The notes beneath the pieces were generated by a model. The model saw only the letters and a list, made by a program, of their open reading frames with translations, was not told the DNA's origin and searched no databases. A stretch of 64,000 bases of DNA from Candidatus Omnitrophota bacterium (GTDB lineage: Bacteria > Omnitrophota > Gorgyraeia > JABMRN01 > RBG-13-46-9), in assembly GCA_013203315.1 (NCBI GenBank), contig JABMQJ010000018.1, positions 11,292 through 75,291 of the forward strand, read 5' to 3'. Every line of letters starts with the position of its first letter. Position 1 is the first letter of the stretch. This document shows, in pieces, positions 1,078 through 32,809 of the stretch. The translations under genes were made by a program, and so were the position numbers.

Positions 1078-2100
1078 TTGAAAATGTACAGATTTGATAA
1101 TCATATTGCTGCTTATGACGAATCGCGGCGCTACAATCGCAAAGGAGAAATAGCAGCCTTCCCTCCTTATGTTACTTTTGAACTGGGAAATAGCTGTAAT
1201 TTTTCGTGCATTATGTGCCGTAAGACCTACATTAAGGAAAAGAAAGAAGAGCTAGATTTTTCAGTATTTAAGAAATGCGTAGACGAAATATCAAATTATG
1301 GAAGTCTGGTGAGATTTATAGGTTACTGCGAGCCGCTTCTCTATAGCAAAATAAAAGATGCTATACGATACGTAAAGAAAAAAGGACTACGTTTGCATAT
1401 TACGACAAATGGTAGCCTTTTAAACAGAGAGATGATAAATGCAATACTCGAAAACGAAGTAGATAGCGTAATTTTTTCTTTTCAAGGATTTACGCAAGAA
1501 GAAGATTGCTTTATGCGAAATATCTCTTGTAAAACCTACTCTAATGTAGTGAATAAAATAAAATTGCTGCATAAAAGTAGAAAATCTGAAAAGCCATATA
1601 TTACCATAAGTACCACAATCACAAGTCGTGATAATCCGGAATATGAAACTGAATTTATAAAAAGACATATGTGTTATGCGGACCAAGTTCAAGTTACTGG
1701 AGCCACGCATTTTGCGTTTATCGAGGATGAGTCCGGTATAAGAGATATAGAGAAAAAACTGGGGCTCAATAAGCCGCGAAAGCTGAAAAATGTGAAATGT
1801 TTTTTAACTAATTATGAGATGAAAATTGCAGAAAATGGAAATGTTTATATGTGTTGCGGTTCATTTACCGATGAACTTAATATCGGCAACATAGAGAAGA
1901 ATACTCTCTTTAATATGTGGCACTCCGAAAAAGCTATGAAAATTAGGGAAACGTTGGCATTCGGCGATCTGGATAAATTCAAGAACTGCAGGGCTTGCCA
2001 GATACGCTACGACTATGACAAAATAGGTAATACGATAATGAATACGATGAAGGGAAAGAACAAAAAAAAGAAGATGGAACTCTATGCAGAAGAAAGATAG
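1078..2100 (+). CDS. Radical SAM protein with C-terminal SPASM/twitch-like Cys cluster
   Basis: CxxxCxxC motif 'CNFSCIMC' near the N-terminus. C-terminal 'CCGS...NCRACQIRYDY' Cys-rich region. RBS AAGGAAG upstream. Confidence 0.65.
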   Translation: MKMYRFDNHIAAYDESRRYNRKGEIAAFPPYVTFELGNSCNFSCIMCRKTYIKEKKEELDFSVFKKCVDEISNYGSLVRFIGYCEPLLYSKIKDAIRYVKKKGLRLHITTNGSLLNREMINAILENEVDSVIFSFQGFTQEEDCFMRNISCKTYSNVVNKIKLLHKSRKSEKPYITISTTITSRDNPEYETEFIKRHMCYADQVQVTGATHFAFIEDESGIRDIEKKLGLNKPRKLKNVKCFLTNYEMKIAENGNVYMCCGSFTDELNIGNIEKNTLFNMWHSEKAMKIRETLAFGDLDKFKNCRACQIRYDYDKIGNTIMNTMKGKNKKKKMELYAEER

Positions 2101-3241
2101 TATAGAAACTTTTCAACGCAACACAAAAGCAATTACGTATTGCACGCGGTGCCTTATGCCCTCGACTCGACCGTGGATTAATCACAACGAACACGGTGCC
2201 TGTAACGCCTGCGAGAATGCCGAGGCCAAAAAAAGAAACATAGACTGGAAGGCAAGATGGAAAGAGCTCGAGAAGATATGCGATAAATACAGATCAAAAG
2301 GCGATACATTTGATTGCATCGTTCCTTGCAGTGGCGGGAAAGACGGTTCTATTGTTGCCTGGAAACTGAAACATGAGATGGGAATGCACCCTTTGTGCAT
2401 AACACTTGCACCACAACTTCCCACAAAAATAGGAATAGAGAATTTGCACAATTTCATAAATTCCGGGTTTGATCATTTATTGATTACACCAAACCCGCAA
2501 AATGAGAAAAAGATCGCTCTATTTGGAATGACTGAACAGGGAAGGCCTCGATTAAGCACCGTGCTTGGACAAACCACTGCTTTGGTGAACGCGGCAGTCA
2601 AGTTTAAGATCCCTCTTATCGTGTACGGCGAAGAAGGGCACAGCGAGTATGGAGGCGTTACCCATATGGGTACAAAATCGCACTTCACAAAAGAAGAAAG
2701 AATACAGCTTTATTTCAGTGGTAATGACCCTGACAAAATTGCCGAAAAGATAGGGATAAAGAGAAAAGACCTTCCGTGGATGCGTTTTCCGACACTACAG
2801 GAGCTACAGAGCGTAGGAATTCTATGGCTTCACTGGTCATATTTTGAAAAATGGAATCAATATGAGCACTATCTGCTTGCCAAGCGGCATTGCGAATTTA
2901 AGACATTACCCCAGCGCAGCATAGGTACGTATACAAATTTTGCGCAACTTGACGATGATATGCAAGACTTGCATGTTTATTTTATGTTTTTAAAATTTGG
3001 ATTTGGAAGGACAACCTCCGATGCATGCATAGATGTGCGCAGGGGAGCGCTTGATAGAAAACAGGCGCTTGCATTAGTAAGAAGATATGATGGAGAATAC
3101 CCAGAATCTTTAATCCCACATTTTCTAGACTATTTTAGCATGACGAAAGAACAATTTGACAGCATCATTGACAAGTGGGCAAATAGAGAAGTTCTGACAA
3201 AAGTAAATGGGATTTGGAAACTAAAAGAACTACCTTCTTAA
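2084..3241 (+). CDS. N-acetyl sugar amidotransferase (WbuX/PseA-like PP-loop amidotransferase)
   Basis: N-terminal zinc-ribbon 'CTRC...CNAC' followed by the PP-loop 'CSGGKDGS'. Directly followed by HisH-like and HisF-like genes, the classic WbuX-WbuY-WbuZ arrangement. Confidence 0.7.
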   Translation: MQKKDSIETFQRNTKAITYCTRCLMPSTRPWINHNEHGACNACENAEAKKRNIDWKARWKELEKICDKYRSKGDTFDCIVPCSGGKDGSIVAWKLKHEMGMHPLCITLAPQLPTKIGIENLHNFINSGFDHLLITPNPQNEKKIALFGMTEQGRPRLSTVLGQTTALVNAAVKFKIPLIVYGEEGHSEYGGVTHMGTKSHFTKEERIQLYFSGNDPDKIAEKIGIKRKDLPWMRFPTLQELQSVGILWLHWSYFEKWNQYEHYLLAKRHCEFKTLPQRSIGTYTNFAQLDDDMQDLHVYFMFLKFGFGRTTSDACIDVRRGALDRKQALALVRRYDGEYPESLIPHFLDYFSMTKEQFDSIIDKWANREVLTKVNGIWKLKELPS

Positions 3242-3252
3242 GAGGATACCAG

Positions 3253-3870
3253 ATGGTTTCTATCGTAAATTATAAGATGGGAAATATCCGTTCGATACAG
3301 AACGCGTTGTCGTATCTGGGTGTTGACTCTCGTGTGATAGATTCGCCCGAGGAGATATTGACCAGTAAGAAACTGATTCTTCCGGGAGTCGGTTCTTTCC
3401 GTGTTGCCATGGAGCACATACGGGCGATGAAGCTCTTTGAGGCCCTGAATGAGGCTGCATTAAAACAAGGAGTTCCTCTCCTTGGTATCTGTTTAGGAAT
3501 GCAGTTATTGGCAACTGAAGGTGAAGAGGAAGGCCCTACCAAGGGTTTTGGCTGGATTCCTGGCAGGGTAAAACGCTTTTCACCTGAAAGATTATCCATA
3601 AAGGTGCCGCACATAGGTTTCAATACAGTATATTTTGAGCCCAAATCCAAAACTCTATTTGAAGGGTTGGAAACTTGCGCTGATTTTTATTTCGTCCATA
3701 GCTACAGAATGATATGTGAGGAGCCCGAAAAATGCGTTTCATCATGGGCAGATTATGGTGAACGTTTTGTAGCCAGCGTAGAGCATCGCAATATCTTCGG
3801 TACTCAATTCCATCCGGAGAAAAGCCAAAGCAACGGCCTGACAGTGCTTAAGAATTTTTGTGCAATTTAA
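3253..3870 (+). CDS. Imidazole glycerol phosphate synthase HisH-like glutamine amidotransferase subunit (WbuY-type)
   Basis: Class I GATase motifs ('GVGSF', 'GICLGMQLL', 'HSY', C-terminal 'FGTQFHPEKS'). Start placed at the ATG after RBS AGAGGA rather than the upstream-extended ORF beginning at 3214. Confidence 0.75.
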   Translation: MVSIVNYKMGNIRSIQNALSYLGVDSRVIDSPEEILTSKKLILPGVGSFRVAMEHIRAMKLFEALNEAALKQGVPLLGICLGMQLLATEGEEEGPTKGFGWIPGRVKRFSPERLSIKVPHIGFNTVYFEPKSKTLFEGLETCADFYFVHSYRMICEEPEKCVSSWADYGERFVASVEHRNIFGTQFHPEKSQSNGLTVLKNFCAI

Positions 3871-3880
3871 GGTGTAATAA

Positions 3881-4711
3881 ATGGCAAAGAACCGTCTAAT
3901 CTTTACTTTGTTGATGCAGGAAGGGACTTACATGCTGAGTCGAAATTTTTCTCTCCAATCAGTAGGTGGGTTAGACTGGATAAAAGAATTCTATAATTTC
4001 GACGCTATAACTTTTTCTATTGACGAGCTTATCGTATTAAATGTAGAAAGAGGAGTGAGAAAAATCGATGAATTTTCGAAGAATCTAGCGGAATTAAACA
4101 AAGGTTGTTTTATGCCTTTGGCTGTCGGAGGAGGCATACGGACAATGGAACACGCCTACTCTCTTTTGAATGCGGGAGCCGATAAATTGATTATAAACAC
4201 CCCTTTGATTGAAGAGCCAAAATTTGTAAGTTCACTGGTTAAGACCTTTGGTAGCCAATGCATCATTGCTTCTATTGATTATAGAGTGAAAAAAGACGGT
4301 GACAATACGGTTTGTATCCGTAACGGATCTCACCCTACAGGTAAAGGGGTGGATGAAGTTGTAAAAATTGCCAGAAATCTTGGTTGTGGAGAAATTTACC
4401 TCACTTCTATAGATAAAGATGGAACAGGCGAGGGGCTTGATTTGGAATTAATTAGACAAGTTACGTCTACGGCCACAGTTCCGGTAATCGCTTCTGGCGG
4501 GGTAGGCAAATTTGGACATTTTACGGAGGGCTTATTACAGGGTAAGGCCGAAGCGGTTTCAACAGCCAACCTTTTCAACTTCATAGAGGATGGATTAATC
4601 GAAGCCAGATCAGATATGCAGAAAGAAGGAATAAAAATGGCTAGCTGGAATTTTAGTTTTTATAGTACAGTTCCGGAAAAAGTCGGATATAGTAAAAAAA
4701 GAAGCCAATAG
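3881..4711 (+). CDS. Imidazole glycerol phosphate synthase cyclase HisF-like subunit (WbuZ-type)
   Basis: TIM-barrel HisF signatures 'GGGIRT' and 'ASGGVG'. Adjacent to the HisH-like gene. Confidence 0.75.
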   Translation: MAKNRLIFTLLMQEGTYMLSRNFSLQSVGGLDWIKEFYNFDAITFSIDELIVLNVERGVRKIDEFSKNLAELNKGCFMPLAVGGGIRTMEHAYSLLNAGADKLIINTPLIEEPKFVSSLVKTFGSQCIIASIDYRVKKDGDNTVCIRNGSHPTGKGVDEVVKIARNLGCGEIYLTSIDKDGTGEGLDLELIRQVTSTATVPVIASGGVGKFGHFTEGLLQGKAEAVSTANLFNFIEDGLIEARSDMQKEGIKMASWNFSFYSTVPEKVGYSKKRSQ

Positions 4712-19378: not shown

Positions 19379-20367
19379 TACAAAAGAAAGAATTGTTAAA
19401 TGAAATGAAGAATTCAAAGGCATTAAAATCGCTTGCTGTTTTTGGCAAAAAGCGTTTTTACAACATATATCATAGGGCAAGGCTGATTAAAACCGAATTT
19501 CCATCAGAAATCTGGATTGAAAATACCAATTGTTGTAACGCCTCTTGCGTGATGTGCCCTCGTGAAAAACATACAAGAGCGCAGGGGTTCATGGATTTTT
19601 CACTTTTTGAAAAGCTAGCTAAGGAAATATCGCATTTTGGCAATATTGTAAAGAGGGTACATTTACACAACTATGGTGAACCCTTACTAGATAGAGACCT
19701 TGCCCGGCGCATAAGAACGGCGAAAGATTGCGGTATTAAGCATACATATATTGTTACCACTGCTTCGCTTCTTACCGTCGCGAAATCCAAAGAGATTATA
19801 GAAGCAGGCCTTGATGAGATGAAAATTAGTTTCTATGGGACCGATCAAAAAACGTATAACGATACAATGGTAGGACTTGACTTTTACAAGACACTTACCA
19901 ATGTGGCCGATTTTTTTAAAACAAGAAAGAAAATTGGGAAAAAGAATCCCCGAGTAGTCTTGCAATATCTGCCAACAGACAGCAATAAATCAAAGACAGA
20001 AGATTTTTTCCGTATCTTAAAACCGCTTATCGAAGAAGAAGTGGGAGATTGTTTCAATATTTTTGAACTCCACAATTATGGGTCCGGAAGATCCTATGTT
20101 AAATTGGGAGATATAACGCGGATTTGTCATTTTCCCTGGCGCACCATGGTTATTTTGCATGATGGGAAAGCAGTGCTCTGTTCACCCGATTATAATGGAT
20201 TGCAGGTAGTTGGTGACACTAACACGAACACGATAAAAGAAATATGGAACGGTAATAAATATAAAAAGGTAAGGCAGGATTTTAAAAAATTAGAGTATCA
20301 AAATTACTCAGTTTGTAAAGAGTGTACCGCTGTGCGAGAAACTATGTACCCTAAAATAAATAGATAG
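19375..20367 (+). CDS. Radical SAM protein with SPASM/twitch-like C-terminal Cys motif
   Basis: 'NTNCCNASCVMCPR' CxxxCxxC motif. C-terminal 'CSPDY...CKECTAV'. ATGA overlap with the preceding gene and GAGG RBS. Confidence 0.6.
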   Translation: MIQKKELLNEMKNSKALKSLAVFGKKRFYNIYHRARLIKTEFPSEIWIENTNCCNASCVMCPREKHTRAQGFMDFSLFEKLAKEISHFGNIVKRVHLHNYGEPLLDRDLARRIRTAKDCGIKHTYIVTTASLLTVAKSKEIIEAGLDEMKISFYGTDQKTYNDTMVGLDFYKTLTNVADFFKTRKKIGKKNPRVVLQYLPTDSNKSKTEDFFRILKPLIEEEVGDCFNIFELHNYGSGRSYVKLGDITRICHFPWRTMVILHDGKAVLCSPDYNGLQVVGDTNTNTIKEIWNGNKYKKVRQDFKKLEYQNYSVCKECTAVRETMYPKINR

Positions 20368-23692: not shown

Positions 23693-25213
23693 ATGCGAGT
23701 GTTATTCGTTAATTTTAATCTTAATTCGACGCCGGGCATAAATAACGGGTTGGCAATTCTGTCTTCTGTTTTAAAGAAAAAAAACCACGAGGTCAGGCTT
23801 CTTTTTCTTTGCAATGAGCTCGGTTATGATTTAGATTTTGCACGTATAAAAAAAGATGTATTGGATTCCAGGCCGGATATCATAGGAATTTCTCTGATGG
23901 AAACACAACTCAAGCACATGAAGGCTTTTTTAAAAAACCTGAGAAAATATTATAAGGGTTTAGTTGTCTGCGGAGGGCCGCATCCTACGATGAATCCCGA
24001 AGACGTGCTTTCTATAAAAGGCATAGATGTTGTGTGCGTCGGAGAAGGCGAGGGCGCTATTCTTGAATTTATCGAAGCATTAAAAGCCGGAAGGGATTAT
24101 AAAGACATAAAGAACTTATGGTTCAATTCAGATAACGGTAAAATCATCAAAAACAGGCTGCGTTTTTTCACATCGCTTGAGACCTTGCCCCCGGAGGATA
24201 AAGAACTCTTCGACCTTGATAAGTTGCTCCCTCTAAAAAATTATCAACTGGAGGTTATGCTTGGAAGGGGATGTATGTATCAATGCACCTACTGTATTAA
24301 TAAGCCCTTTATAGAGCAGTATAGACAGTTGTGTGAAAATGAGATTACTGCAAAAGATTATATGCGAGTTAAAAAAAGTTGTACCGTAATAGAAGAAATT
24401 AAGAATAGCGTGTTACGGCATCCTGAGATCAAAAAAATAGCTTTTATTGATGACGATTTTCTTATGTATACAAATTTCGCGAATGACTTTTTTGAAAAAT
24501 ACAAAAAAGAAATCAATCTCCCATTCATGTGCAATATAAATCCTGTGTCGTTTAATGTGTCCAAGGGGCATCTGTTAAAGGAAGCCGGTTGTGATGATAT
24601 ACGTTTTGGCGTAGAGAGCGGTAGCGAGAGGGTAAAAAATGACATCATGAAAAGGCCTATTCGTAACAGGAGCATTATAAGCGCTTTTAATATCACTAAA
24701 AAACTAGGTTTAATGACCAGCTCATTTAACATGATAGGCTTGCCTACGGAAACCAAGGAAGAGATTCTCGAAACCCTGAAACTCAATGCTGCCATAGGGC
24801 CCGATAGCATGAAGGTAATGACTTTCTACCCGTTTAAAAATACACCTCTTTATGATGTATGCCGAGAAATGGATCTAATAGATGAAGAAAAAAAGATGGA
24901 GCTGGATAATTACGATACTTTTACCTGTCTTAGATTTCCTGCGGAACATCAGCTCTTTTTAAGGAAGGTTCAGAGTGTATTTAACTGGTACATCAATGCA
25001 TTTTTAGAGAATGAAGCCTCCGGGGAGTACTCAAAAATGATAAGGGATGTAGAAAAGATGACAGAAAGTCGTTGGGACAAGTTCGACCATCTCTCTTGCG
25101 ATAAGGAACTGTCAGAGAAAATGAGAAGAAAAAACGCGCCGCATTATTCAAAATTCGTAAATAGAAGTTTAGCAGTAAAATATCCAAGTAAACATTGTGA
25201 GAAAAAAAGGTGA
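23693..25213 (+). CDS. Cobalamin (B12)-binding radical SAM protein
   Basis: 'LGRGCMYQCTYCIN' radical SAM triad after an N-terminal B12-binding-like region ('VVCGGPHPT'). Confidence 0.7.
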   Translation: MRVLFVNFNLNSTPGINNGLAILSSVLKKKNHEVRLLFLCNELGYDLDFARIKKDVLDSRPDIIGISLMETQLKHMKAFLKNLRKYYKGLVVCGGPHPTMNPEDVLSIKGIDVVCVGEGEGAILEFIEALKAGRDYKDIKNLWFNSDNGKIIKNRLRFFTSLETLPPEDKELFDLDKLLPLKNYQLEVMLGRGCMYQCTYCINKPFIEQYRQLCENEITAKDYMRVKKSCTVIEEIKNSVLRHPEIKKIAFIDDDFLMYTNFANDFFEKYKKEINLPFMCNINPVSFNVSKGHLLKEAGCDDIRFGVESGSERVKNDIMKRPIRNRSIISAFNITKKLGLMTSSFNMIGLPTETKEEILETLKLNAAIGPDSMKVMTFYPFKNTPLYDVCREMDLIDEEKKMELDNYDTFTCLRFPAEHQLFLRKVQSVFNWYINAFLENEASGEYSKMIRDVEKMTESRWDKFDHLSCDKELSEKMRRKNAPHYSKFVNRSLAVKYPSKHCEKKR

Positions 25214-25225
25214 GGTAGGTGCAAT

Positions 25226-26206
25226 ATGTTCAATAAGAACCCAAGTGTTTCCATTGTTTTTCCGATTTTTAACGAAGAAGAGACTATAAAACTTCTATAT
25301 CAACTTGTGAGAGATGTCTGCACAAAGTCCAACGTTGACTATGAGATGATATTCGTGGATGACGGCAGTACGGATAATTCACTAAATGTGGTCAAAGATT
25401 TGAAGAACCAAGACAAAAAAGTTGCCTTTGTTTCGTTATCGCGCAATTTTGGTCATCAAAGTGCGCTTTTTGCAGGCATGTCTTATGCCACAGGGGATGC
25501 CGTAATTACAATGGACGCCGACTTGCAGCATTCACCGTCATTAATCCCAAAAATGATCGATTTATGGCGCAACGGCTACGAAGTTGTATATACGATGAAG
25601 AAAAAATATGATTTACCGTTTATAATGTCATTAGTGATAAAGCTTTTCTATTGGTTTATTTCGAAGATATCCGACATACGTTTGAGCTTCGGTCAATCCG
25701 ACTTTAGATTGCTCGACAGAAAGGTTCTTGATGCTATTTTGGAAATTCCGGAATACCATAAATTTTTACGTGGGCAAATTGAATGGGTGGGTTTTCGACA
25801 ATACGGTCTTATGTATGATGTAGAAAAGCGTCACAGCGGTAAATCTAAAATTTCTTATCGAAAGCGCCTTTCGTTTGCCTTAGACGGCATTTTTGCATTT
25901 TCCAGTTATCCGTTACATTTATTAATGTCTTTTAGCATTGGCGTGGCAATATTATCTTTTCTTTATATATGCATCGAGTTAACCGGATGGATGCTGAAGG
26001 CATTAAATATTTGCCCCAATTTAATCATACCCCATGGGTGGGTTACTCTAATCGTTTCGGTGTTTTTCCTGGGAAGCTTGCAACTTATGGCCATAGCCCT
26101 TGTTGGCGGATATATCGGAAGAACCTACGACCAAACGAAGGGGCGCCCCGTTTTCATCATAAAAGAGTCGTCGGTTCAGAAGAAAACCCAAGCAGGAGCT
26201 CGCTGA
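25226..26206 (+). CDS. Polyprenol-phosphate glycosyltransferase (GT2; GtrB/ArnC/DPM1-like) with C-terminal TM helices
   Basis: 'VSIVFPIFNEEETI...FVDDGSTDNS...MDADLQHSP' GT2 catalytic region followed by two C-terminal hydrophobic helices, as in GtrB/ArnC. RBS GAGGTAGG. Confidence 0.7.
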   Translation: MFNKNPSVSIVFPIFNEEETIKLLYQLVRDVCTKSNVDYEMIFVDDGSTDNSLNVVKDLKNQDKKVAFVSLSRNFGHQSALFAGMSYATGDAVITMDADLQHSPSLIPKMIDLWRNGYEVVYTMKKKYDLPFIMSLVIKLFYWFISKISDIRLSFGQSDFRLLDRKVLDAILEIPEYHKFLRGQIEWVGFRQYGLMYDVEKRHSGKSKISYRKRLSFALDGIFAFSSYPLHLLMSFSIGVAILSFLYICIELTGWMLKALNICPNLIIPHGWVTLIVSVFFLGSLQLMAIALVGGYIGRTYDQTKGRPVFIIKESSVQKKTQAGAR

Positions 26207-27048
26207 TGAATAAATGCGGAATTTGCAGTGGCACTTTCACTAAATCCATGTATGACGGGATACGAAAATGCCAGAAATGCGATCATGTTTTTTTTGATTT
26301 AAACTTGAACGATGAGGAATTGCACAAGCTCTATGGCAGAAATTATTTTTTTGGAGGCGAATATAATAATTACCTAAAAGACAAAAAAATATTGCAAAAG
26401 AATTTTAAATTACGCATGAGAATTCTGCAGAAATTTCTTGAACCGGCGCGTCATAAGCATCTTCTTGAAATTGGTTGCGCGTATGGCTTTTTTCTTGATA
26501 TAGCAAAGAACCAATTCCATACAACGCAGGGAATAGATATTGCCGAAGACGGCGTTTCTTATGCGCGTACTCAATTAAAACTCGACGCTATCAATGCTAA
26601 TTTTACACAGTATAATTGGGGCAACCAAAAATTTGATGTAGTATGCATGTGGGACACCATAGAACACTTACGGGATCCGGATATCTATCTAGAGAAAATC
26701 AGTAATCTTATGGAAAAAGGATCTTTACTAGCCCTAACAACAGGAGATATAGAAAGTCTTAATGCAAGAATTAGAAAAAAGAAATGGCGATTAATGCATC
26801 CCCCGACGCATATACACTATTTTTCCAGAAGAACATTGACTAAGCTTTTAGATAATCATGGGTTTGATGTAATATATAATCGATACTGCGGTTTTTACCG
26901 CAGTATCGACCTTATTGCATACCGCACGTTGATGTTGAATAAAAAAAGGCCATGGCTCTATAATATTTTGCAGAAAAGCGGTATTGCCAATATCGGTATA
27001 TACTCAAATCTCTATGATATTATGTGTGTTGTAGCGCGTAAACGTTAG
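26206..27048 (+). CDS. SAM-dependent methyltransferase with N-terminal zinc-ribbon (C-methyltransferase-like architecture)
   Basis: N-terminal 'CGICSG...CQKCDH' zinc ribbon. Motif I 'LLEIGCAYGFF'. Start overlaps the previous stop (TGATG). Confidence 0.55.
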   Translation: MNKCGICSGTFTKSMYDGIRKCQKCDHVFFDLNLNDEELHKLYGRNYFFGGEYNNYLKDKKILQKNFKLRMRILQKFLEPARHKHLLEIGCAYGFFLDIAKNQFHTTQGIDIAEDGVSYARTQLKLDAINANFTQYNWGNQKFDVVCMWDTIEHLRDPDIYLEKISNLMEKGSLLALTTGDIESLNARIRKKKWRLMHPPTHIHYFSRRTLTKLLDNHGFDVIYNRYCGFYRSIDLIAYRTLMLNKKRPWLYNILQKSGIANIGIYSNLYDIMCVVARKR

Positions 27049-27121
27049 TGGCTTGCATATTTAGCGGCTGATAATAGTTAGGCATTTTTAAGTTTTTTAT
27101 AAAAAGAAAGAGGTGTCGACG

Positions 27122-29092
27122 ATGTGTGGGATATTTGGTTTTACGATAAAAAATAAACCAAACTTGACTAAAGAAGACTTAAAGGATATGGCCTCCATTT
27201 TATTCAAGTTGTCTGCGCGCCGCGGCCATGAAGCAACAGGCTTGGCTATCGCTCATCATGGCAAGATATCGGTTTATAAGCAACCGACAAGCTATAGAGA
27301 GATGCTCGAGGGGGAAGGATTTAATAACTTTCTTAATCGCTTCCAAACCTCTTCAGCTTCTCCCGGACGGCCAAAGCATATTACAACGCCGATAACGCTT
27401 ATTGGCCATACGCGACTTGTTACAAGCGGAATCCAGGTTTTGCATGAGAACAATCAGCCAATTATTTCAAATCACATAGTCGGTGTTCACAACGGCATTA
27501 TAGCAAATGACGATAACTTGGCTAAACGGCATCTTCCTTCGAAAAGAATGCCAAGGAGCGATTCCACTCTTTTGTTCGAACTGATCGACAAATTTTACTC
27601 TGACACAGGAGAACTCAAAGCGGCAATTTCAAAAGTATACAGTGAAATTTTAGGATCAGCTTCAATTGCGTTGTTTAGTGATGATCAATCCGGGCTAACC
27701 CTTGCGACAAACACAGGTTCTTTATATCACAGTTACAATGATGAGGCCGGCTTTTTTGTGTTTGCATCCGAACATTATATAGTTGAACAATTTCTCAAGA
27801 AAAGCATTCTCGCAAGAGGCTACGATTCCCACAATATCCAATGTCTTAATCCGGCCACCGGCGCTTTTGTCAAATTCGAAAATGTTATACCTGAAATTTT
27901 CCAGCTAAAAGAACCCATGGACAAGCAAGCGCCCGCGCCTACGGATAGAAAAAAGAACATCTATGAAATTATCAATGCCAGTTCACCTCGAAAATCTTTA
28001 CGCCATTGCACGCGTTGTGTATTACCGGAAACCTATCCCTTTATTTCGTTTGACGAGAATGGCGTCTGCAATTATTGCAGAAAATACAAAAAACAGGAAT
28101 TTCTTGGTTATGATGCACTTGAAAATATCCTAAGTAAATACCGTTCGAAGGACGGCAGGCCTGATTGTATTGTTGGGTTTAGCGGTGGCCGAGATAGTTC
28201 ATATGCGTTACATGTTTTGAAGACAAAGCTTGGCATGCATCCGATCGCATATACTTACGACTGGGGATTGGTCACGGACCTTGCGAGGCGCAATCAGGCA
28301 AGGGTTACCGGAAAGCTCGGTATTGAGCACCTTATCCGTGCGGCTGATATTCATACGAAACGGCGGCATATCAAAAAACATATTTATGCATGGCTTGAAA
28401 AACCCGAATTGGGAATGGTCCCGCTTTTTATGGCCGGTGATAAAATGTTTTATTACTATGGCGGGCAACTTCGCAAGGAAACAGGTATAAAGCTTACGGT
28501 TTTTGCAGCCGGGCAGCAACTAGAGCAAATGGAGTTCAAGGTTGGTTTTTGCGGAATCGATGAGCACCTAGAGAATAATACAAAACTATATCATTTTAAA
28601 CTCATATCAAAGGTTCGTTTGGCATTGTGGTATCTAAAGCAATACTGCTTAAATCCACGTTATTTCAACGAATCTTTTTTTGATAGCGCTTTTGCTTTTT
28701 ATGTGTCCTTTCTGAATAAAGACGATTATACTTACCTCTATCGTTATATTCCGTGGGATGAAAAGGTAATAGAGCGAACTTTGAAAGAAGAATATGACTG
28801 GGAGTTGGATAGTAAATACGGTAAAAATCAATGGCGTATGGGCGACGGCCAAACAGCATTTACAAACTACATATATTACGCCATAGCCGGTTTTTCCGAG
28901 TTTGATAGCTTTCGCAGCAACCAGATCCGTGAAGGTCTGATTACTAGGGAAGAAGCTGTGGAACTTCTGAAAGATGATAACAGGCTGCGTATTGGAATGT
29001 TGCAGGATTTTAGCCAGCTAATCGGTTTTAATCTTGAAGAAGTCCTGCTAAAAATTAATAAAATTCCTAAATTGTACCAAGAGAAAAAATAA
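27122..29092 (+). CDS. Fusion protein: class II (Ntn, AsnB-like) glutamine amidotransferase domain + N-acetyl sugar amidotransferase (WbuX-like PP-loop) domain
   Basis: Start chosen so Cys is residue 2 ('MCGIFGF'), preceded by RBS AAAGAGG. 'RRGHEATG', 'IGHTRLVTSG', 'NQPI' and 'VHNGIIAND' parallel AsnB GATase motifs. C-terminal half has the zinc ribbon 'CTRCVLPE...CNYC' and PP-loop 'FSGGRDSS', paralogous to the CDS at 2084. Confidence 0.6.
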   Translation: MCGIFGFTIKNKPNLTKEDLKDMASILFKLSARRGHEATGLAIAHHGKISVYKQPTSYREMLEGEGFNNFLNRFQTSSASPGRPKHITTPITLIGHTRLVTSGIQVLHENNQPIISNHIVGVHNGIIANDDNLAKRHLPSKRMPRSDSTLLFELIDKFYSDTGELKAAISKVYSEILGSASIALFSDDQSGLTLATNTGSLYHSYNDEAGFFVFASEHYIVEQFLKKSILARGYDSHNIQCLNPATGAFVKFENVIPEIFQLKEPMDKQAPAPTDRKKNIYEIINASSPRKSLRHCTRCVLPETYPFISFDENGVCNYCRKYKKQEFLGYDALENILSKYRSKDGRPDCIVGFSGGRDSSYALHVLKTKLGMHPIAYTYDWGLVTDLARRNQARVTGKLGIEHLIRAADIHTKRRHIKKHIYAWLEKPELGMVPLFMAGDKMFYYYGGQLRKETGIKLTVFAAGQQLEQMEFKVGFCGIDEHLENNTKLYHFKLISKVRLALWYLKQYCLNPRYFNESFFDSAFAFYVSFLNKDDYTYLYRYIPWDEKVIERTLKEEYDWELDSKYGKNQWRMGDGQTAFTNYIYYAIAGFSEFDSFRSNQIREGLITREEAVELLKDDNRLRIGMLQDFSQLIGFNLEEVLLKINKIPKLYQEKK

Positions 29093-29103
29093 GTAATAAC
29101 AAA

Positions 29104-31020
29104 ATGAATTTTAGTAAAACAAAGATATTGGTTCTGATAGTAGTTTGCGCTGCTAATTTACTATTATTACTCCCTACCATGGGGAATAATGTCGACAATC
29201 CCAACCTAATTACTTATTTTAGCGGCGATGAAGGCTATACGATGGATGTTTTGTGGTTTTATTATAGCGGAGAAAAGAGGGAGAGTTACCAGGGGGACGT
29301 TGATTATGGAATTGAGTGGTTTTATGTTTCACGCTTTGCGCGTTTGATATTATCAAAATTCATAGATTTTGGACCAGGTACCCTTATCTTATTATTAAAA
29401 TGGATTCATTTGATTGCTTGGATCGGCGCTTTAATCGCACTGTGGTTTTTTGTGGGTTATCATTTTGGGAAAGGATGGCAACAGATAGTGGCCGTTCTTT
29501 TGCTGGCAACCAGGCCTTCATTGGATTATGTTTTTAATAGTGCTAAACCAGAACCGCTTGTTTTGCTAATCATGCTGCTTGGGTTCCATTTTGTTTTAAG
29601 AATTATAGAAAAACCATCGATTAAATACTTTTTATTTTCTATATTATGTGTCGTAACCGCATTCGCTATAAAGTTTGCAGGTATTTTTCTGCTTCCTGCA
29701 ATAATTGCTGCCATGTATTATTCAAAACAATATCAGAACGATCTTGGCAGAAAAAATTATATTGGGCCTTTCCCGAAATTTAAACACAACTGGATATTTG
29801 AGTTTCTAATAGGCATATTTTTTATTACAATTCCGTTTTTATTTATCTTTTCTTATGTTCGTAAATCGACAGGTCTTACTTTCTACAATGAATTTGGTAT
29901 TTTAGGAAGCCTTGCAAAGAACAAAATATCTTTTTTAGCCTTTTTTACGGGCGCAGTTTTTTTGTTTATCTCGGCCATATTATTTTTCCTAAATAAAAGT
30001 AGAAAATTTTCCAATAAAAAAATTACAGAAACGATTAACGAAATAAATTCATATGCCTTACTGTCAGGAGGACTATTTTTCATTTTTTTGTTATTAATCG
30101 AGTTTAAATGGATTTTATCTAGTCCGGATCTATTTCGCACAACATATTTCTATAATATTTCTGACTTTATAGGCGTATTTGCCACCAGAACCGTTACTGT
30201 CAGTAACATTCTAGGAAGATATTCAGGAATTGTTATTTCGAAAATAAAGGGGTTCGATCCTATAATACTTCTTTTATTTGGCATTTATCTAATTGTGGAG
30301 TTACGTTTACGTAAGCAGAAATCAAACATTGAGAGACGATCATTCTATAAAAGATTATCCTTAGACTTCATGCTTATACCGATTTTTATAGCCATCTTTA
30401 CCATGGGTAGATTTACGCATCATCATATGCTGCCATTTTTTTGCGTAGCATCTATTTTAGCAATTAAAGGGGTTGATATGTTTAGAACTGCGTTTAAAGG
30501 TCCGAGATTGATAAAAATGGCATTTTTATTCTTTGTCAGTATCTTATTTACGATTAGTATAGTGACGCATGGGGCAGAGTTAATAAAGCTAAGGTTGTAT
30601 CAGTACAGACAGAGGGAGGATGTTGTTTTCGAGATAGAAAAGTGGTGGAGACAAAATGTTCCCCTAGATGAAACCGTTGTAGCAGATCATCATTCAATGG
30701 TTTACATGCCTCCAGAGTATAAAAACGTGACATTTATTAAAATTTCCCATGATAAAATCGAACAAATAAAAGATCTTGTGCGTACGGTAAAGCCAAAATA
30801 TGTTTATTATAACAGTGGGCATGATGAAAAGCACATAGTGCCGCCCATTGAATCAGTTTTGCCCGATTTAAAAGTAAAATTGGTCGCATCTTTTAATAGC
30901 GTAGGTAGATTGTATAGAAGGCTTCCGAACTCGCAATTTCTAATATATGAAGTAATCTCCTACGACAAAACAAGTAAAATAGACGATGTGGAACTCTATT
31001 TAAAAACAGGGGATATATGA
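29104..31020 (+). CDS. Polytopic membrane protein, putative GT-C (PMT_2/ArnT-like) glycosyltransferase
   Basis: More than 10 predicted TM helices. Loop motif 'GDEGY' near the N-terminus. Soluble C-terminal domain. Positioned after the polyprenol-P sugar synthase at 25226. Confidence 0.35.
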   Translation: MNFSKTKILVLIVVCAANLLLLLPTMGNNVDNPNLITYFSGDEGYTMDVLWFYYSGEKRESYQGDVDYGIEWFYVSRFARLILSKFIDFGPGTLILLLKWIHLIAWIGALIALWFFVGYHFGKGWQQIVAVLLLATRPSLDYVFNSAKPEPLVLLIMLLGFHFVLRIIEKPSIKYFLFSILCVVTAFAIKFAGIFLLPAIIAAMYYSKQYQNDLGRKNYIGPFPKFKHNWIFEFLIGIFFITIPFLFIFSYVRKSTGLTFYNEFGILGSLAKNKISFLAFFTGAVFLFISAILFFLNKSRKFSNKKITETINEINSYALLSGGLFFIFLLLIEFKWILSSPDLFRTTYFYNISDFIGVFATRTVTVSNILGRYSGIVISKIKGFDPIILLLFGIYLIVELRLRKQKSNIERRSFYKRLSLDFMLIPIFIAIFTMGRFTHHHMLPFFCVASILAIKGVDMFRTAFKGPRLIKMAFLFFVSILFTISIVTHGAELIKLRLYQYRQREDVVFEIEKWWRQNVPLDETVVADHHSMVYMPPEYKNVTFIKISHDKIEQIKDLVRTVKPKYVYYNSGHDEKHIVPPIESVLPDLKVKLVASFNSVGRLYRRLPNSQFLIYEVISYDKTSKIDDVELYLKTGDI

Positions 31021-31760
31021 GTCCGAAAAGGGATACCGAGAAAGATGATGTAGTGATACTTTGCGGAGGCATGGGCACGCGCCTGCGTGAAGAAACGGAA
31101 ACAAAGCCTAAGCCAATGGTGGAAATAGGCGGAAAGCCGATATTATGGCACATTATGAAGTATTATGCAGCTTATGGATTTACGAGATTCATTTTGGCTC
31201 TCGGATATAAAGGCGCTTATATCAAGGATTATTTTCGTGATTACAACAATGAAAAACAATGGGAAATCGCATGCGTCGATACCGGCCAAAAAACCCTTAA
31301 AGGCGGCCGCATAAAAAGATTGGAACCCCATATAAAAAGCAAAAATTTCCACCTTACATACGGTGATGGCCTGGGTAGGGTGGACCTTAAGCGCCTGGCG
31401 AACTTCCACTTTTCGCGTAAAAAAATAGGCACAGTTACCGCCGTTCGCCCGCCATCGCGCTTTGGGGAATTGCTGTTAAAAGGCAATTATGTTAAGGAAT
31501 TCGAAGAAAAACCGCAACTCACCAGAGGATATATAAACGGCGGATTTTTCATATTTAATAAGAAACTTCTTGAATATCTGACGCCCGATGAAAATTGCGA
31601 TCTGGAATTCGGCGCGTTACAGAAACTAGCATCCGAGGGCCAACTTACCGCATATAAGCATGACGGTTACTGGCAGTGCATGGATACGGCCAGGGACATG
31701 AATTACCTTAATGAGTTATGGGAAAACGGCGACCCGCCATGGAGGATATGGAACAAATGA
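31017..31760 (+). CDS. rfbF: Glucose-1-phosphate cytidylyltransferase
   Basis: 'VVILCGGMGTRLREETETKPKPMVEIGGKPILWHIMKYY' closely matches the RfbF/DdhA N-terminus. Length is about 247 aa. ATGA overlap with the upstream gene. Confidence 0.8.
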   Translation: MSPKRDTEKDDVVILCGGMGTRLREETETKPKPMVEIGGKPILWHIMKYYAAYGFTRFILALGYKGAYIKDYFRDYNNEKQWEIACVDTGQKTLKGGRIKRLEPHIKSKNFHLTYGDGLGRVDLKRLANFHFSRKKIGTVTAVRPPSRFGELLLKGNYVKEFEEKPQLTRGYINGGFFIFNKKLLEYLTPDENCDLEFGALQKLASEGQLTAYKHDGYWQCMDTARDMNYLNELWENGDPPWRIWNK

Positions 31761-32809
31761 AGCCCACTGTATTAATTACGGGGAACACAGGCTATATCGG
31801 GACGGTCATGGCGAAGCACTTTAAAGAGGCCTCTTACAATGTCGTGGGCCTGGATAATGATTTATACCGTGAAAACTCTCTCTTTTCTTCCGGCGATGAG
31901 GCAAAGCCGCAAAAACAAATTATAAAGGATATCCGACAGGTTACAGCAAATGACCTAGAAGGCGTAGACGCAGTGATACATCTTGCGGGGCTCTCAAATG
32001 ATCCCCTGGGGGAGTTGAACCCCGGACTAACCGATGAGATAAATTGCGTATCCACATTGCAGTTGGCACGTTTGGCAAAGTCAAAAGGGATAAAACGCTT
32101 TCTTTTTTCTTCTTCCTGCAGTATTTATGGGATATCTTCCGTAGATTTTTCAATAAATGAGACAGGGCGCCTTAAGCCCCTGACCGCCTATGCCAAGGCA
32201 AAGGTTGATGCGGAATCAGGACTCGCAAAACTTGCGGATGAAAATTTTCATCCTGTTTTTATGCGTAACGCGACAGTCTACGGCCTCTCCCCGAAGATGA
32301 GGCTGGATCTTGTCGTGAATAACCTTACCGCATGGGCATATTTAAAGGGTGAAATTGCAATAATGAGCGACGGCACGCCATGGAGGCCTATTGTGCACGT
32401 CGAAGATCTGTCCCGTGCCTTCAAAACGGTTCTTGAGGCGCCACATAAAAAAATTCATTGCCAGGCTTTTAATATCGGGTCAAATACCGAGAATTATCAG
32501 GTTAAAGATATAGCGCTAAAAGTCGGAAGTGCCGTACCCGAAGCCAGCATAAAGATACTGAATAAAATGGGACCCGATGAAAGAACCTATAAAGTAGATT
32601 TTTCCAAGTTTAAAGACGCGTTTCCGGAATTTAAATGGCTATGGAACGTAGAGAAAGGAATAGAAGCGCTTCTGGATGCATACAAAAGATATTCCTTGAG
32701 CGTAGATGACTTTGAATCTGACAAATATTTCCGCGTAAGGACAATTAAGTCACTACTTGAATCAGGCAAAATAGATGAAAATCTTAAAATTAAGGGAGGC
32801 CAGGCATGA
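31748..32809 (+). CDS. NAD-dependent epimerase/dehydratase-family SDR (candidate CDP-hexose 4,6-dehydratase or epimerase)
   Basis: 'VLITGNTGYIGTVMAKH' Rossmann motif and 'YAKAKVDAE' YxxxK. Start at the ATG after GGAGGAT at 31748. Confidence 0.6.
   Translation: MEQMKPTVLITGNTGYIGTVMAKHFKEASYNVVGLDNDLYRENSLFSSGDEAKPQKQIIKDIRQVTANDLEGVDAVIHLAGLSNDPLGELNPGLTDEINCVSTLQLARLAKSKGIKRFLFSSSCSIYGISSVDFSINETGRLKPLTAYAKAKVDAESGLAKLADENFHPVFMRNATVYGLSPKMRLDLVVNNLTAWAYLKGEIAIMSDGTPWRPIVHVEDLSRAFKTVLEAPHKKIHCQAFNIGSNTENYQVKDIALKVGSAVPEASIKILNKMGPDERTYKVDFSKFKDAFPEFKWLWNVEKGIEALLDAYKRYSLSVDDFESDKYFRVRTIKSLLESGKIDENLKIKGGQA

What the first reader, a model, noticed from the sequence alone, without database searches (positions are those of the whole stretch)
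27122..29092. Novel fused amidotransferase: AsnB-like class II GATase domain joined to a WbuX-type N-acetyl-sugar amidotransferase domain
The N-terminal 'MCGIFG' Cys-2 nucleophile and AsnB-like motifs are fused to a zinc-ribbon + PP-loop ('FSGGRDSS') domain. That domain is paralogous to the stand-alone WbuX-like protein at 2084-3241. Canonical N-acetyl sugar amidotransferases obtain ammonia from separate HisH/HisF-like partners (WbuY/WbuZ), and such a trio is present at 2084-4711 in this same window. Here the PP-loop domain has instead captured an Ntn-type glutaminase, recreating the asparagine-synthetase architecture on a sugar substrate. Two independent amidotransferase systems in one cluster suggest two distinct amidation events, for example acetamidino formation and carboxamide formation.
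Basis: seen in the sequence. Interest (0 to 1): 0.65.

Follow-up and report, generated by a model that had tools for sequence, protein, structure and literature searches.

The report
Glutaminase-fused sugar amidotransferase, widespread and unannotated
This gene encodes one protein that joins a glutamine-splitting domain to a WbuX-like sugar amidotransferase domain; it belongs to a large, cross-phylum family that databases call "hypothetical" or mislabel, and that sits in gene modules building lipid-carried sugars for export to the cell surface.

Summary
ORF 27122-29092 (+) encodes a 656-aa protein. Residues 1-~262 form a class II (Ntn) glutaminase with Cys1, Arg-Gly, Arg, Asn-Gly and Asp conserved. 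Residues ~290-656 form a Zn-ribbon/PP-loop domain of the N-acetyl sugar amidotransferase (NASAT/WbuX) lineage. The reading of a glutaminase captured in place of HisH/HisF partners holds, with three corrections.

- The N-domain is GlmS/PurF-like, not specifically AsnB-like.
- The C-domain is a distinct NASAT subfamily: 22% identity to stand-alone NASATs and below the TIGR03573 cutoff.
- The fusion is not unique. At least 80 verified genomes (about 580 candidates) across more than 10 phyla and archaea carry it. They are labelled hypothetical, GlmS, AsnB or QueC, and I found no paper describing it.

HisH/HisF genes are absent from its neighbourhood in all but three loci. The recurring partners are a polyprenyl-phosphate GT2, a MOP or GtrA flippase and a GT-C transferase.

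Most likely it is a self-contained glutamine- and ATP-dependent amidotransferase in an Arn/Gtr-like surface-glycan modification route. Whether it makes an acetamidino or a carboxamide group is unresolved. I rate it a new variant of a known kind, of moderate interest.

The parts
27104..27113 (+). Shine-Dalgarno-like AAGAAAGAGG, 8 nt upstream of the ATG at 27122
   Evidence: sequence. The alternative GTG at 27113 overlaps this site and would put three residues before the Cys.
27122..29092 (+). Fusion gene: 656-aa glutaminase plus NASAT-like amidotransferase. It is 100% identical to Candidatus Omnitrophica MAG protein HQ549_04610, labelled 'hypothetical protein'.
27122..27907 (+). N-terminal class II (Ntn) glutaminase domain, aa 1 to ~262. 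Key residues are Cys2 (Cys1 after Met removal), R34-G35, R98, N124-G125 and D147.
   Evidence: Pfam GATase_6/7 above cutoff. Residue-level alignment to GlmS C1, R26-G27, R73, N98-G99 and D123. Conserved in 42 homologs. Foldseek match to 1xff, TMt 0.75.
27908..27988 (+). Inter-domain linker, aa ~263-289, with low model confidence
   Evidence: AF2 pLDDT is 56-64 for blocks 261-280 and below 50 at aa 271-275
28001..29041 (+). C-terminal NASAT/WbuX-like synthetase domain, aa 294-640
   Evidence: TIGR03573 covers model positions 2-338 of 344 at 145 bits. PDB 8wex E 1e-14 by sequence, 9.6e-20 by profile, Foldseek TMt 0.57-0.58.
28007..28078 (+). Zn-ribbon tetracysteine motif C296-x2-C299 ... N-G-V-C316-x2-C319
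   Evidence: sequence. All four Cys are invariant. Motif definition CxxCxn[GN]xCxxC and zinc binding come from PMC10607449.
28181..28198 (+). PP-loop S354-G-G-R-D-S359, the ATP pyrophosphatase signature
   Evidence: Invariant in the family. Aligned to SGGKDS of 8wex.
25226..26206 (+). GT2 of the polyprenyl-phosphate sugar synthase class (PgfS/ArnC-like, full-length match, C-terminal TM helices)
   Evidence: A related GT2 lies within 3 genes of the fusion in 33 of 74 loci.
26209..27048 (+). SAM methyltransferase (Methyltransf_23) with an N-terminal CxxC...CxxC Zn ribbon
   Evidence: A homolog lies within 3 genes in 20 of 74 loci.
29104..31020 (+). Polytopic GT-C (PMT_2/ArnT-like) glycosyltransferase immediately downstream
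   Evidence: The same position is occupied in L001, L084 and L087.
31017..31760 (+). Sugar-1-phosphate nucleotidyltransferase, glucose-1-P cytidylyltransferase-like (287 bits, cutoff 300)
   Evidence: Part of the conserved module in L001, L084 and L087.
31718..32809 (+). SDR epimerase/dehydratase
2084..3241 (+). Stand-alone bona fide NASAT (WbuX, 338 bits). This is the distant paralog of the fusion's C-domain.
3214..3870 (+). HisH-type class I glutaminase, the WbuY equivalent
3881..4711 (+). HisF-like WbuZ/AglZ acetamidino-modification protein

Best explanation
The gene encodes a self-contained, glutamine-dependent and ATP-dependent sugar amidotransferase. The N-terminal Ntn glutaminase uses Cys1 to hydrolyse glutamine and passes the ammonia within the same polypeptide to the C-terminal NASAT-like domain. 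That domain uses its PP-loop to adenylate a carbonyl oxygen of the substrate, releasing PPi and then AMP, so that ammonia can displace it. By homology the substrate is most likely the N-acetyl group of an amino sugar, giving a cationic acetamidino group. The fused glutaminase takes the place of the HisH/HisF-like WbuY/WbuZ pair used by canonical WbuX enzymes. The enzyme works inside a conserved module of polyprenyl-phosphate GT2 synthase, MOP or GtrA flippase and GT-C transferase, often with a methyltransferase and NDP-sugar enzymes. That module builds a lipid-carrier-linked sugar, flips it and transfers it to an extracytoplasmic acceptor, an Arn/Gtr/Pgf-like logic. What is shown: the architecture, conservation of the catalytic residues, the fold of both halves, the lack of nearby HisH/HisF, and the conserved partners. 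What is inferred: ammonia channelling, the adenylation chemistry, which group is amidated, and whether the substrate is the nucleotide sugar or the lipid-linked sugar.
For: Architecture and start codon. The glutaminase catalytic set aligns with GlmS C1, R26, R73, N98-G99 and D123 and is conserved in 42 homologs at 47-67% identity. All four Zn cysteines and the whole PP-loop are invariant. The AF2 model has pLDDT 85 and pTM 0.78; the N-half matches the GlmS glutaminase domain (TMt 0.75) and the C-half matches Legionella NASAT 8WEX (TMt 0.58). Outside the PP-loop and Zn site, the C-domain shares the invariant residues N391, W545, N569, R603, G605, R609, D619 and E640 with stand-alone NASATs, and the I-R-x-G-x-I-T-R-E-E motif aligns with 8WEX. 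This argues for the same reaction type. HisH/WbuZ homologs occur within +-10 kb in only 1 of 84 loci (L051), plus L086 and this window at 23 kb. GT2 or a flippase lies within +-3 genes in 60 of 74 loci, and a flippase is directly adjacent in 33. The window GT2 is a full-length PgfS/ArnC-type enzyme. PMT_2 GT-C lies downstream in the window, L001, L084 and L087. The unannotated 13-TM partner in 22 Rhodospirillales loci has a GT-C fold (AftA; ArnT prob 1.0, TMt 0.50). In P. abietaniphila the operon ends in GtrA. Separate AsnB-type amidotransferases sit beside the fusion in 7 of the 84 surveyed loci and also on the S. carbinolicus and Agrobacterium RAC06 plasmids, suggesting the fusion does something other than their carboxamide chemistry. 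Genetic evidence that NASATs install acetamidino groups: MMP1081 (PMC2952790) and WbpG/WbuX (PMC10607449).
Against: No biochemical data exist for any member. The C-domain scores below the curated NASAT cutoff (145 vs 203 bits). It is only 22% identical to stand-alone NASATs, with 21 positions conserved in both groups but carrying different residues, so the substrate or even the reaction could differ. The conserved core module contains no aminotransferase or N-acetyltransferase; DegT and Hexapep genes occur in only 4-6 of 84 loci, so an N-acetyl substrate would have to come from the general pool such as UDP-GlcNAc. A UDP-sugar 6-dehydrogenase sits in the P. abietaniphila operon, which fits a uronate substrate. 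I could not obtain model coordinates, so no inter-domain tunnel or Cys1 to PP-loop distance was measured. In Legionella londiniensis the immediate neighbours are ATP-grasp and transglutaminase-like genes rather than GT2 and a flippase. Only +-10 kb was examined, so distant HisH/HisF partners cannot be excluded.
Confidence: 0.55

Rival explanations
1. Same two-domain mechanism, but the PP-loop domain adenylates a sugar carboxylate (a uronic acid) and produces a uronamide. The enzyme would then be a functional analogue of AsnB-type WbpS/WbtH-like enzymes built on a NASAT scaffold.
For: The Ntn plus PP-loop domain logic is that of AsnB, and AsnB is among the top Foldseek hits to the whole model. 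A UDP-glucose/GDP-mannose dehydrogenase lies two genes upstream in the P. abietaniphila operon and is present in L063 and L064. The pocket is divergent, with 21 conserved-but-different positions relative to NASATs. The conserved core module has no aminotransferase or acetyltransferase.
Against: Sugar dehydrogenases are linked in only 3 of 84 loci. True AsnB-type enzymes often sit next to the fusion, which would make it redundant. NASAT-specific invariant residues outside the ATP site are retained. No Asn_synthase domain is detected.
Confidence: 0.2
2. The family acts on a non-glycan substrate such as a small metabolite, a peptide or a lipid head group, and the glycan-gene neighbourhood is only partly relevant.
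For: The Legionella londiniensis context has phosphosulfolactate synthase, two ATP-grasp ligases and a transglutaminase-like protein around the fusion. Fourteen of 74 loci lack GT2 or a flippase within 3 genes. The substrate pocket is divergent.
Against: Sixty of 74 loci across many phyla do have GT2 or a flippase within 3 genes. Operon-like same-strand arrangements with short gaps to GT2, flippase and GT-C are seen in the window and in called or annotated homolog loci. The only characterised relatives of the C-domain act on sugars.
Confidence: 0.1
3. The glutaminase half is catalytically dead or merely regulatory, and the enzyme uses free ammonia or a distant HisH/HisF pair.
For: Some NASATs, for example Campylobacter PseA, have no obvious dedicated glutaminase partner (my own knowledge, not tested here). 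This window does carry a HisH/WbuZ pair 23 kb upstream.
Against: Cys1, R34-G35, R98, N124-G125 and D147 are conserved across homologs down to 47% identity and align with the GlmS catalytic residues. Every full-length homolog keeps MCG at the N-terminus. HisH/HisF is absent nearby in nearly all loci.
Confidence: 0.05
4. The database labels are right and the protein is GlmS, AsnB or QueC.
For: JGI and UniProt automatic names are GlmS or AsnB. RefSeq names the S. carbinolicus homolog '7-cyano-7-deazaguanine synthase'.
Against: GlmS models score 41-45 bits against cutoffs of 381-418, and no SIS domain is found. AsnB scores 23 bits against 267, and no Asn_synthase domain is found. No QueC hit appears at E<=0.01. 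The C-half aligns end to end with the NASAT model and fold.
Confidence: 0.02

Closest known systems
WbuX/WbuY/WbuZ (LfnA, WbpG, PseA; archaeal AglX/Y/Z): the three-component N-acetyl sugar amidotransferase system that makes acetamidino sugars
   Same: The C-domain has the NASAT Zn-ribbon, the PP-loop, full-length model coverage and the 8WEX fold. It sits in a glycan-cluster context. Ammonia presumably comes from glutamine.
   Different: The ammonia source is a fused class II (Ntn) glutaminase instead of a separate class I HisH plus a HisF-like barrel. The C-domain is a separate subfamily: 22% identity, below the TIGR03573 cutoff, with its own invariant motifs such as Q-W-R-M-G-D-G. The conserved partners are polyprenyl-P GT2, flippase and GT-C rather than nonulosonic-acid or FucNAc genes.
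Asparagine synthetase B family, including the sugar uronamide-forming AsnB-like enzymes of O-antigen clusters (WbpS/WbtH type; my own knowledge)
   Same: The domain logic is the same: an N-terminal Ntn glutaminase with Cys1 followed by a PP-loop ATP pyrophosphatase that adenylates the acceptor.
   Different: The synthetase domain comes from a different PP-loop lineage: no PF00733 hit, a Zn ribbon is present, and TIGR01536 scores 23 bits against a cutoff of 267. The glutaminase is closer to GlmS/PurF than to AsnB. The whole-model superposition on AsnB is poor (TMq 0.25). This points to an independent fusion.
Glutaminase domain of GlmS (glucosamine-6-phosphate synthase), PDB 1XFF
   Same: It is the best sequence and structure match for aa 1 to ~240, and all catalytic residues align.
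   Different: There is no SIS isomerase domain. GlmS Trp74 is replaced by Leu, and the C-terminal partner domain is entirely different.
Arn (ArnC/ArnD/ArnEF/ArnT), Gtr (GtrA/B/*), Pgf and Francisella FlmF2/NaxD/FlmK lipid-carrier sugar modification pathways (pathway details from my own knowledge; the PgfS/ArnC match is)
   Same: The gene neighbourhood follows the same plan: a GT2 makes a polyprenyl-P-sugar, a small or MOP flippase flips it, and a GT-C transfers it outside the cytoplasm. In Arn and Flm the N-acyl group is edited on the lipid-linked sugar before flipping.
   Different: Those pathways deformylate or deacetylate the sugar. None is known to contain an amidotransferase, so an amidation step at this point would be new.

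Membership tests
NASAT / WbuX (TIGR03573) | PP-loop SGGxDS | tested here: met
   S354-G-G-R-D-S359 is present, invariant in 42 homologs and aligned to SGGKDS of 8WEX. Definition from PMC10607449.
NASAT / WbuX (TIGR03573) | Zn-binding tetracysteine motif CxxCxn[GN]xCxxC | tested here: met
   C296-T-R-C299...N-G-V-C316-N-Y-C319. All four Cys are invariant and shared with stand-alone NASATs.
NASAT / WbuX (TIGR03573) | Score at or above the curated family cutoff | tested here: not met
   145.2 bits against a cutoff of 203.2, although the alignment spans model positions 2-338 of 344. The window's stand-alone WbuX scores 338 bits.
NASAT / WbuX (TIGR03573) | NASAT fold (Rossmann-like PP-loop core plus helical basin, PDB 8WEX) | tested here: met
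   Foldseek match to 8wex_A/B: E 6-7e-13, prob 1.0, TMt 0.57-0.58.
NASAT / WbuX (TIGR03573) | Converts a sugar N-acetyl group to an acetamidino group | not testable with these tools
   This needs enzymology or glycan mass spectrometry. Gene context does not decide it.
NASAT / WbuX (TIGR03573) | Works with HisH/HisF-like WbuY/WbuZ partners (typical, not universal) | tested here: not met
   HisH/WbuZ lie within +-10 kb in only 1 of 84 loci, plus L086 and this window at 23 kb.
Class II (Ntn) glutamine amidotransferase domain | N-terminal nucleophile Cys directly after the initiator Met | tested here: met
   MCGIFG at the RBS-supported start. The same N-terminus is seen in full-length homologs.
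Class II (Ntn) glutamine amidotransferase domain | Oxyanion Asn-Gly plus the substrate-binding Arg and Asp | tested here: met
   R98, N124-G125 and D147 align with GlmS R73, N98-G99 and D123. R34-G35 align with R26-G27. All are conserved.
Class II (Ntn) glutamine amidotransferase domain | Profile score above cutoff, and the Ntn fold | tested here: met
   GATase_6 46.1 bits (cutoff 27) and GATase_7 34.4 bits (cutoff 25). 1xff TMt 0.75, rmsd 3.9.
Asparagine synthetase B (TIGR01536 / PF00733) | Asn_synthase C-terminal domain and family score | tested here: not met
   No PF00733 hit. TIGR01536 scores 23.4 bits against a cutoff of 267. No AsnB chain appears among PDB profile hits at E<=1e-3.
GlmS (TIGR01135) | Two SIS isomerase domains after the glutaminase | tested here: not met
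   No SIS hit. GlmS models score 41-45 bits against cutoffs of 381-418 and match only aa 1-219.
QueC (RefSeq label on the S. carbinolicus homolog) | QueC family profile match | tested here: not met
   No QueC model appears among NCBIfam hits at E<=0.01. The only shared feature is the generic PP-loop.

The most novel reading that the evidence does not exclude
The fusion enzyme acts on a polyprenyl-phosphate-linked N-acetyl sugar on the cytoplasmic face. It converts that sugar to a cationic acetamidino sugar, sometimes N-methylated by the adjacent methyltransferase. The sugar is then flipped and attached by a dedicated GT-C to lipid A, LPS or another envelope acceptor. This would be a previously unrecognised surface-charge modification pathway, analogous to Ara4N or GalN addition, and widespread in environmental bacteria including SAR11 relatives, Planctomycetota, Omnitrophota and some archaea.
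Probability: 0.2. Interest if true: 0.75.

Novelty: new variant of a known kind. Interest (0 to 1): 0.55.

Why it matters
Amidotransferases are a textbook case of modular evolution, in which a synthetase recruits one of a few glutaminase types. Only the HisH/HisF-type ammonia supply has been described for NASAT enzymes. This family shows an independent recruitment of an Ntn glutaminase, giving a one-protein alternative to a three-protein system.

The family is large and phylogenetically broad. Public databases annotate it inconsistently or wrongly, as hypothetical, GlmS, AsnB or QueC, and some RefSeq gene models cut off the catalytic Cys. A defined name and model would correct many annotations.

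The family is consistently linked to polyprenyl-P GT2, flippase and GT-C genes. That link points to an uncharacterised envelope-glycan modification route containing an amidation step. The route can be tested directly in cultured hosts: P. abietaniphila ATCC 700689, S. carbinolicus DSM 3852, L. londiniensis ATCC 49505 and Agrobacterium sp. RAC06. A single-polypeptide amidotransferase would also be a convenient tool for making acetamidino or amide sugars in vitro.

Tried and rejected
- **Two merged genes or a wrong start.** Rejected. It is a single ORF, the RBS fits the ATG, and homologs share the same length and N-terminus.
- **GlmS, AsnB or QueC identity.** Rejected on domain content and scores.
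- **Inferring the amidated group from gene context.** Inconclusive. UDP-sugar dehydrogenase is in 3 of 84 loci, DegT in 6, Hexapep in 4 and AsnB-like genes in 7.
- **Showing the 13-TM Rhodospirillales partner is GT-C by profile-profile comparison with PMT_2 clusters.** Failed, with hhalign probability below 10%. Structure prediction and Foldseek then showed the GT-C fold.
- **Other polytopic neighbours** (clusters 30, 33, 57, 58). These remain unassigned.
- **Apparent conserved 552-aa partner in Rhodospirillales.** It is just GroEL, with GroES beside it. The nearby PMT_2-DedA-GT2 block there is separated from the fusion by groESL, so it may be only syntenic.
- **Literature searches for a described fusion.** Nothing found. 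The primary AglXYZ paper (PMC3347211) is not held.
- **AFDB fold search.** Unavailable.
- **Phage collection.** Only weak partial N-domain hits, with no full-length relative.
Full report
**Observation.** The window has one uninterrupted + strand ORF from 27113 (GTG) or 27122 (ATG) to 29092. A Shine-Dalgarno-like AAGAAAGAGG ends 8 nt before the ATG at 27122, and the GTG overlaps that site. The protein is therefore 656 aa and starts MCGIFG, which leaves Cys as residue 1 once the Met is removed. Pfam finds GATase_6 (46.1 bits, cutoff 27) and GATase_7 (34.4 bits, cutoff 25) at aa 89-218. NCBIfam finds TIGR03573 (WbuX, N-acetyl sugar amidotransferase) at aa 294-640. That match covers model positions 2-338 of 344 but scores 145.2 bits against a cutoff of 203.2. 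The Zn-ribbon CTRC...NGVCNYC and the PP-loop FSGGRDSS are in the sequence. They match the motifs that define the NASAT family in the only structural paper on it (PMC10607449). The fusion's C-domain is related to that stand-alone WbuX, but only distantly: 35% identity over 130 aa around the Zn-ribbon and PP-loop, E 4e-21. No other window ORF resembles either half, and the gene's GC content matches the window.

**Are both halves functional?** I aligned 42 full-length homologs at 47-67% identity (A1). R34-G35, R98, G125 and D147 are invariant, and C2 and N124 are conserved in at least 90%. All four Zn cysteines and the complete PP-loop S354-G-G-R-D-S359 are invariant. HMMER alignments to solved GlmS structures run from residue 1. 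They place the family's Cys, Arg-Gly, Arg/Thr, Asn-Gly and Asp on GlmS C1, R26-G27, R73/T76, N98-G99 and D123. An AlphaFold2 model built on A1 is confident (pLDDT 85.2, pTM 0.78), with a low-confidence linker at aa ~262-290. In Foldseek the N-half matches the GlmS glutaminase domain 1XFF (TMt 0.75). The C-half matches Legionella NASAT 8WEX (TMt 0.57-0.58). No solved structure matches the whole arrangement (TMq <=0.35; AsnB 0.25).

**Lineage of the two halves.** The N-domain scores best against GlmS (45 bits), then PurF (27 bits), then AsnB (23 bits). With the family profile, PDB hits are GlmS/GFAT and PurF, and no AsnB chain reaches E<=1e-3. 'AsnB-like' is therefore correct only for the overall plan of an Ntn glutaminase followed by a PP-loop synthetase. 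No Asn_synthase domain is detectable. The C-domain belongs to the NASAT lineage but forms its own subfamily. Identity is 62% within the fusion group, 50% within a sample of stand-alone NASATs, and 22% between them. The two groups share the four Cys, S-G-G-x-D, N391, W545, N569, R603, G605, R609, D619 and E640. At 21 positions each group is conserved but with different residues, for example W571-R572 against A-Q and E593 against R. Together with the GlmS/PurF-like glutaminase, this points to a fusion independent of AsnB.

**Distribution and annotation.** The identical protein is HQ549_04610 of a Candidatus Omnitrophica MAG, labelled 'hypothetical protein'. More than 115 of the 120 best database hits are full-length proteins of about 620-690 aa. 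A scan of GTDB species representatives used two fusion-specific peptide patterns. The 80 loci kept all cover query residues 1 to at least 646 at 42-61% identity. They come from the following groups.
- Omnitrophota, Planctomycetota and Rhodospirillales
- Pelagibacteraceae single-cell genomes
- Myxococcota and Bdellovibrionota
- Legionella londiniensis ATCC 49505 and Pseudomonas abietaniphila ATCC 700689
- Bacillota, Chloroflexota and Saccharibacteria
- Methanoperedens archaea

An exhaustive search of 1.8 billion cluster representatives with the N-domain alone gave 106 hits at E<=1e-30 and 714 at E<=1e-10. The listed best hits (E down to about 4e-28) are all either fusion-length proteins or shorter sequences of 180-530 aa, probably contig-truncated fragments. 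RefSeq calls the cultured-organism proteins 'hypothetical protein', and UniProt auto-names them GlmS. On plasmids, three full-length relatives carry three different labels: '7-cyano-7-deazaguanine synthase', 'hypothetical protein' and 'glucosamine 6-phosphate synthetase'. The Agrobacterium RAC06 RefSeq gene model starts 63 nt too late and removes the MCGIFG N-terminus. NCBI does name the stand-alone 370-400-aa NASATs correctly. Four full-text searches found no paper describing a glutaminase-fused NASAT.

**Does the fusion replace HisH/HisF?** Local HMM searches over 84 loci (+-10 kb) found HisH and WbuZ homologs in only one, L051. There the order is HisH-WbuZ-WbuX-fusion. L086 also has a HisF-like gene and a WbuX-like gene about 6 kb upstream. 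This window carries the trio 23 kb upstream. So the fusion normally has no dedicated HisH/HisF nearby. Where both systems occur, each has its own synthetase, which fits two separate amidation steps. Only the local neighbourhood was examined, so distant partners are not excluded.

**Conserved partners.** Of the 74 loci in which my simplified ORF call recovered a full-length fusion gene, 60 have a GT2 or a MOP-type flippase within three genes. A flippase is directly adjacent in 33, a GT2 lies within three genes in 33, and a Methyltransf_23 lies within three genes in 20. The window's GT2 (25226-26206) is a full-length match to PgfS and ArnC, the polyprenyl-phosphate sugar synthase class. About 70% of the GT2 cluster members have C-terminal TM helices. 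In Omnitrophota, Planctomycetota and Brocadiaceae the module is NTP-transferase, two SDRs, GT2, methyltransferase, fusion, sometimes Wzx, then PMT_2 GT-C. It is seen in the window, L001, L084 and L087. In 22 Rhodospirillales loci the fusion sits between a divergently transcribed, unannotated 617-aa 13-TM protein and a downstream flippase. That protein has no Pfam or NCBIfam hit and no hhalign similarity to PMT_2 clusters. Its AF2 model (pLDDT 87, pTM 0.89) nevertheless matches GT-C enzymes: AftA, ArnT (prob 1.0, TMt 0.50), PglB/STT3 and Pmt4. In P. abietaniphila the operon is a polytopic unknown, UDP-sugar dehydrogenase, methyltransferase, GT2, fusion and GtrA. In S. carbinolicus it is epimerase, GT2, fusion, AsnB, GT and AsnB. 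The recurring theme is a lipid-carrier route: a GT2 loads a sugar onto polyprenyl phosphate, a flippase moves it across the membrane, and a GT-C attaches it outside the cytoplasm. From my own knowledge this resembles Arn, Gtr, Pgf and Francisella Flm pathways, in which the N-acyl group of the lipid-linked sugar can be edited before flipping.

**Mechanism.** The most likely reading is a single-chain amidotransferase dependent on glutamine and ATP. Cys1 hydrolyses glutamine, and the ammonia travels within the protein to the NASAT-like domain. There the PP-loop adenylates a substrate carbonyl oxygen, and ammonia displaces AMP. The NASAT-specific invariant residues outside the ATP site are retained. 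Separate AsnB-type enzymes are often next door. Both points favour N-acetyl to acetamidino chemistry, the activity genetically assigned to NASATs (PMC2952790; PMC10607449). Methyltransferases beside NASAT genes that N-methylate acetamidino groups are known from Campylobacter and Legionella; this rests on my own knowledge and was not tested here.

The main rival is carboxylate amidation to a uronamide. Three observations support it: the AsnB-like domain logic, a sugar dehydrogenase in the Pseudomonas operon, and the lack of aminotransferase or acetyltransferase genes in the core module. Context statistics do not separate the two readings. Whether the substrate is the nucleotide sugar or the lipid-linked sugar is also only inferred.

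**Verdict.** This is not a one-off novelty of this genome. It is a large, conserved, undescribed and misannotated family that represents a new variant of the NASAT amidotransferase system. Its ammonia supply has switched from a HisH/HisF pair to a fused Ntn glutaminase, and it is embedded in a GT2, flippase and GT-C module. Swapping of glutaminase modules is a familiar evolutionary theme, so a specialist would be interested rather than astonished. The more striking possibility is an amidation step on a lipid-carried sugar for envelope charge modification. That is not excluded, but it is unproven.

Noticed in passing
L010:12238-14088 (+); family alignment A2; adjacent to the fusion in 22 Rhodospirillales loci (e.g. 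L002:7024-8871, L003:6996-8849): A conserved 617-aa, 13-TM protein family has no Pfam or NCBIfam hit and only 'hypothetical' labels. Its AF2 model matches GT-C glycosyltransferases (AftA, ArnT, PglB, Pmt4). It carries an invariant S-Q-W-D-E-F motif at aa 118-123. It looks like an unrecognised GT-C family.
   Followed up: partly
window 12218-13888, 16020-17492, 23693-25213, 36227-37558; also 1078-2100 and 19375-20367: One surface-glycan island contains four B12-binding radical SAM enzymes and two SPASM-domain radical SAM enzymes. B12-radical-SAM genes also recur near the fusion in 15 of 84 loci. This suggests unusual C-methylation or other radical chemistry on sugars.
   Followed up: no
window 6689-8731, 17459-19378, 52870-54987 (all +): Three large ORFs of 680, 639 and 705 aa inside the glycan island have no Pfam hit at the thresholds used.
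   Followed up: no
window 22172-23686 (+): A 504-aa ORF has only sub-threshold hints to polysialyltransferase and capsule-synthesis families (17.7 and 15.3 bits). It may be a divergent nonulosonic-acid transferase, which would fit the two CMP-sugar-type cytidylyltransferases at 345-1061 and 13891-14634.
   Followed up: no
L089:9001-10815 (Agrobacterium sp. RAC06 plasmid NZ_CP016500.1, WP_236759418.1): The RefSeq gene model starts at locus position 9064. The ORF and the similarity begin at 9001 with MCGIFG, so the annotation deletes the catalytic N-terminal Cys of a 35%-identical fusion homolog.
   Followed up: yes
L051:7421-11977; L086:1-9950; window 2084-4711 plus 27122-29092: Three loci carry both a canonical WbuX/HisH/HisF-type system and the fusion. 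In L051 they are in direct tandem (HisH-WbuZ-WbuX-fusion). This suggests the two systems are not redundant.
   Followed up: partly
window 14631-16016 (+) and 38799-40646 (+): Two other domain fusions occur in the island. One joins GT2 to a CTP_transf_3 cytidylyltransferase (461 aa). The other joins a GT1/GT4-type glycosyltransferase to DUF218 (615 aa), and the same GT1-DUF218 protein recurs in L084.
   Followed up: no
window 25969-27048 vs 25226-26206: The mechanical ORF for the methyltransferase overlaps the GT2 gene by 238 nt. The likely true start is the ATG at 26206-26208 (MNKCGICSG...), which overlaps only the GT2 stop codon. That gives a Zn-ribbon (CxxC...CxxC) N-terminus on a Methyltransf_23 domain.
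   Followed up: partly
L064:2889-9618 (Legionella londiniensis ATCC 49505): Here the fusion is flanked by phosphosulfolactate synthase (ComA), a glyoxalase, two ATP-grasp ligases and a transglutaminase-like protein rather than GT2 and a flippase. The different context could mean a different substrate in this lineage.
   Followed up: no
phage records MG592578.1 41689-42333 and MW865292.1 38893-39537 (Vibrio phages): Stand-alone class II glutaminase-like ORFs in Vibrio phages match the fusion's N-domain at about 24% identity. One is annotated 'glutamine amidotransferase type 2 domain protein'.
   Followed up: no
window 4760-5764 and 9938-11005: A sulfotransferase and an Ldh_2-family (malate/L-lactate dehydrogenase-like) enzyme are embedded in the glycan island, hinting at sulfated or unusual acid-substituted sugars.
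   Followed up: no
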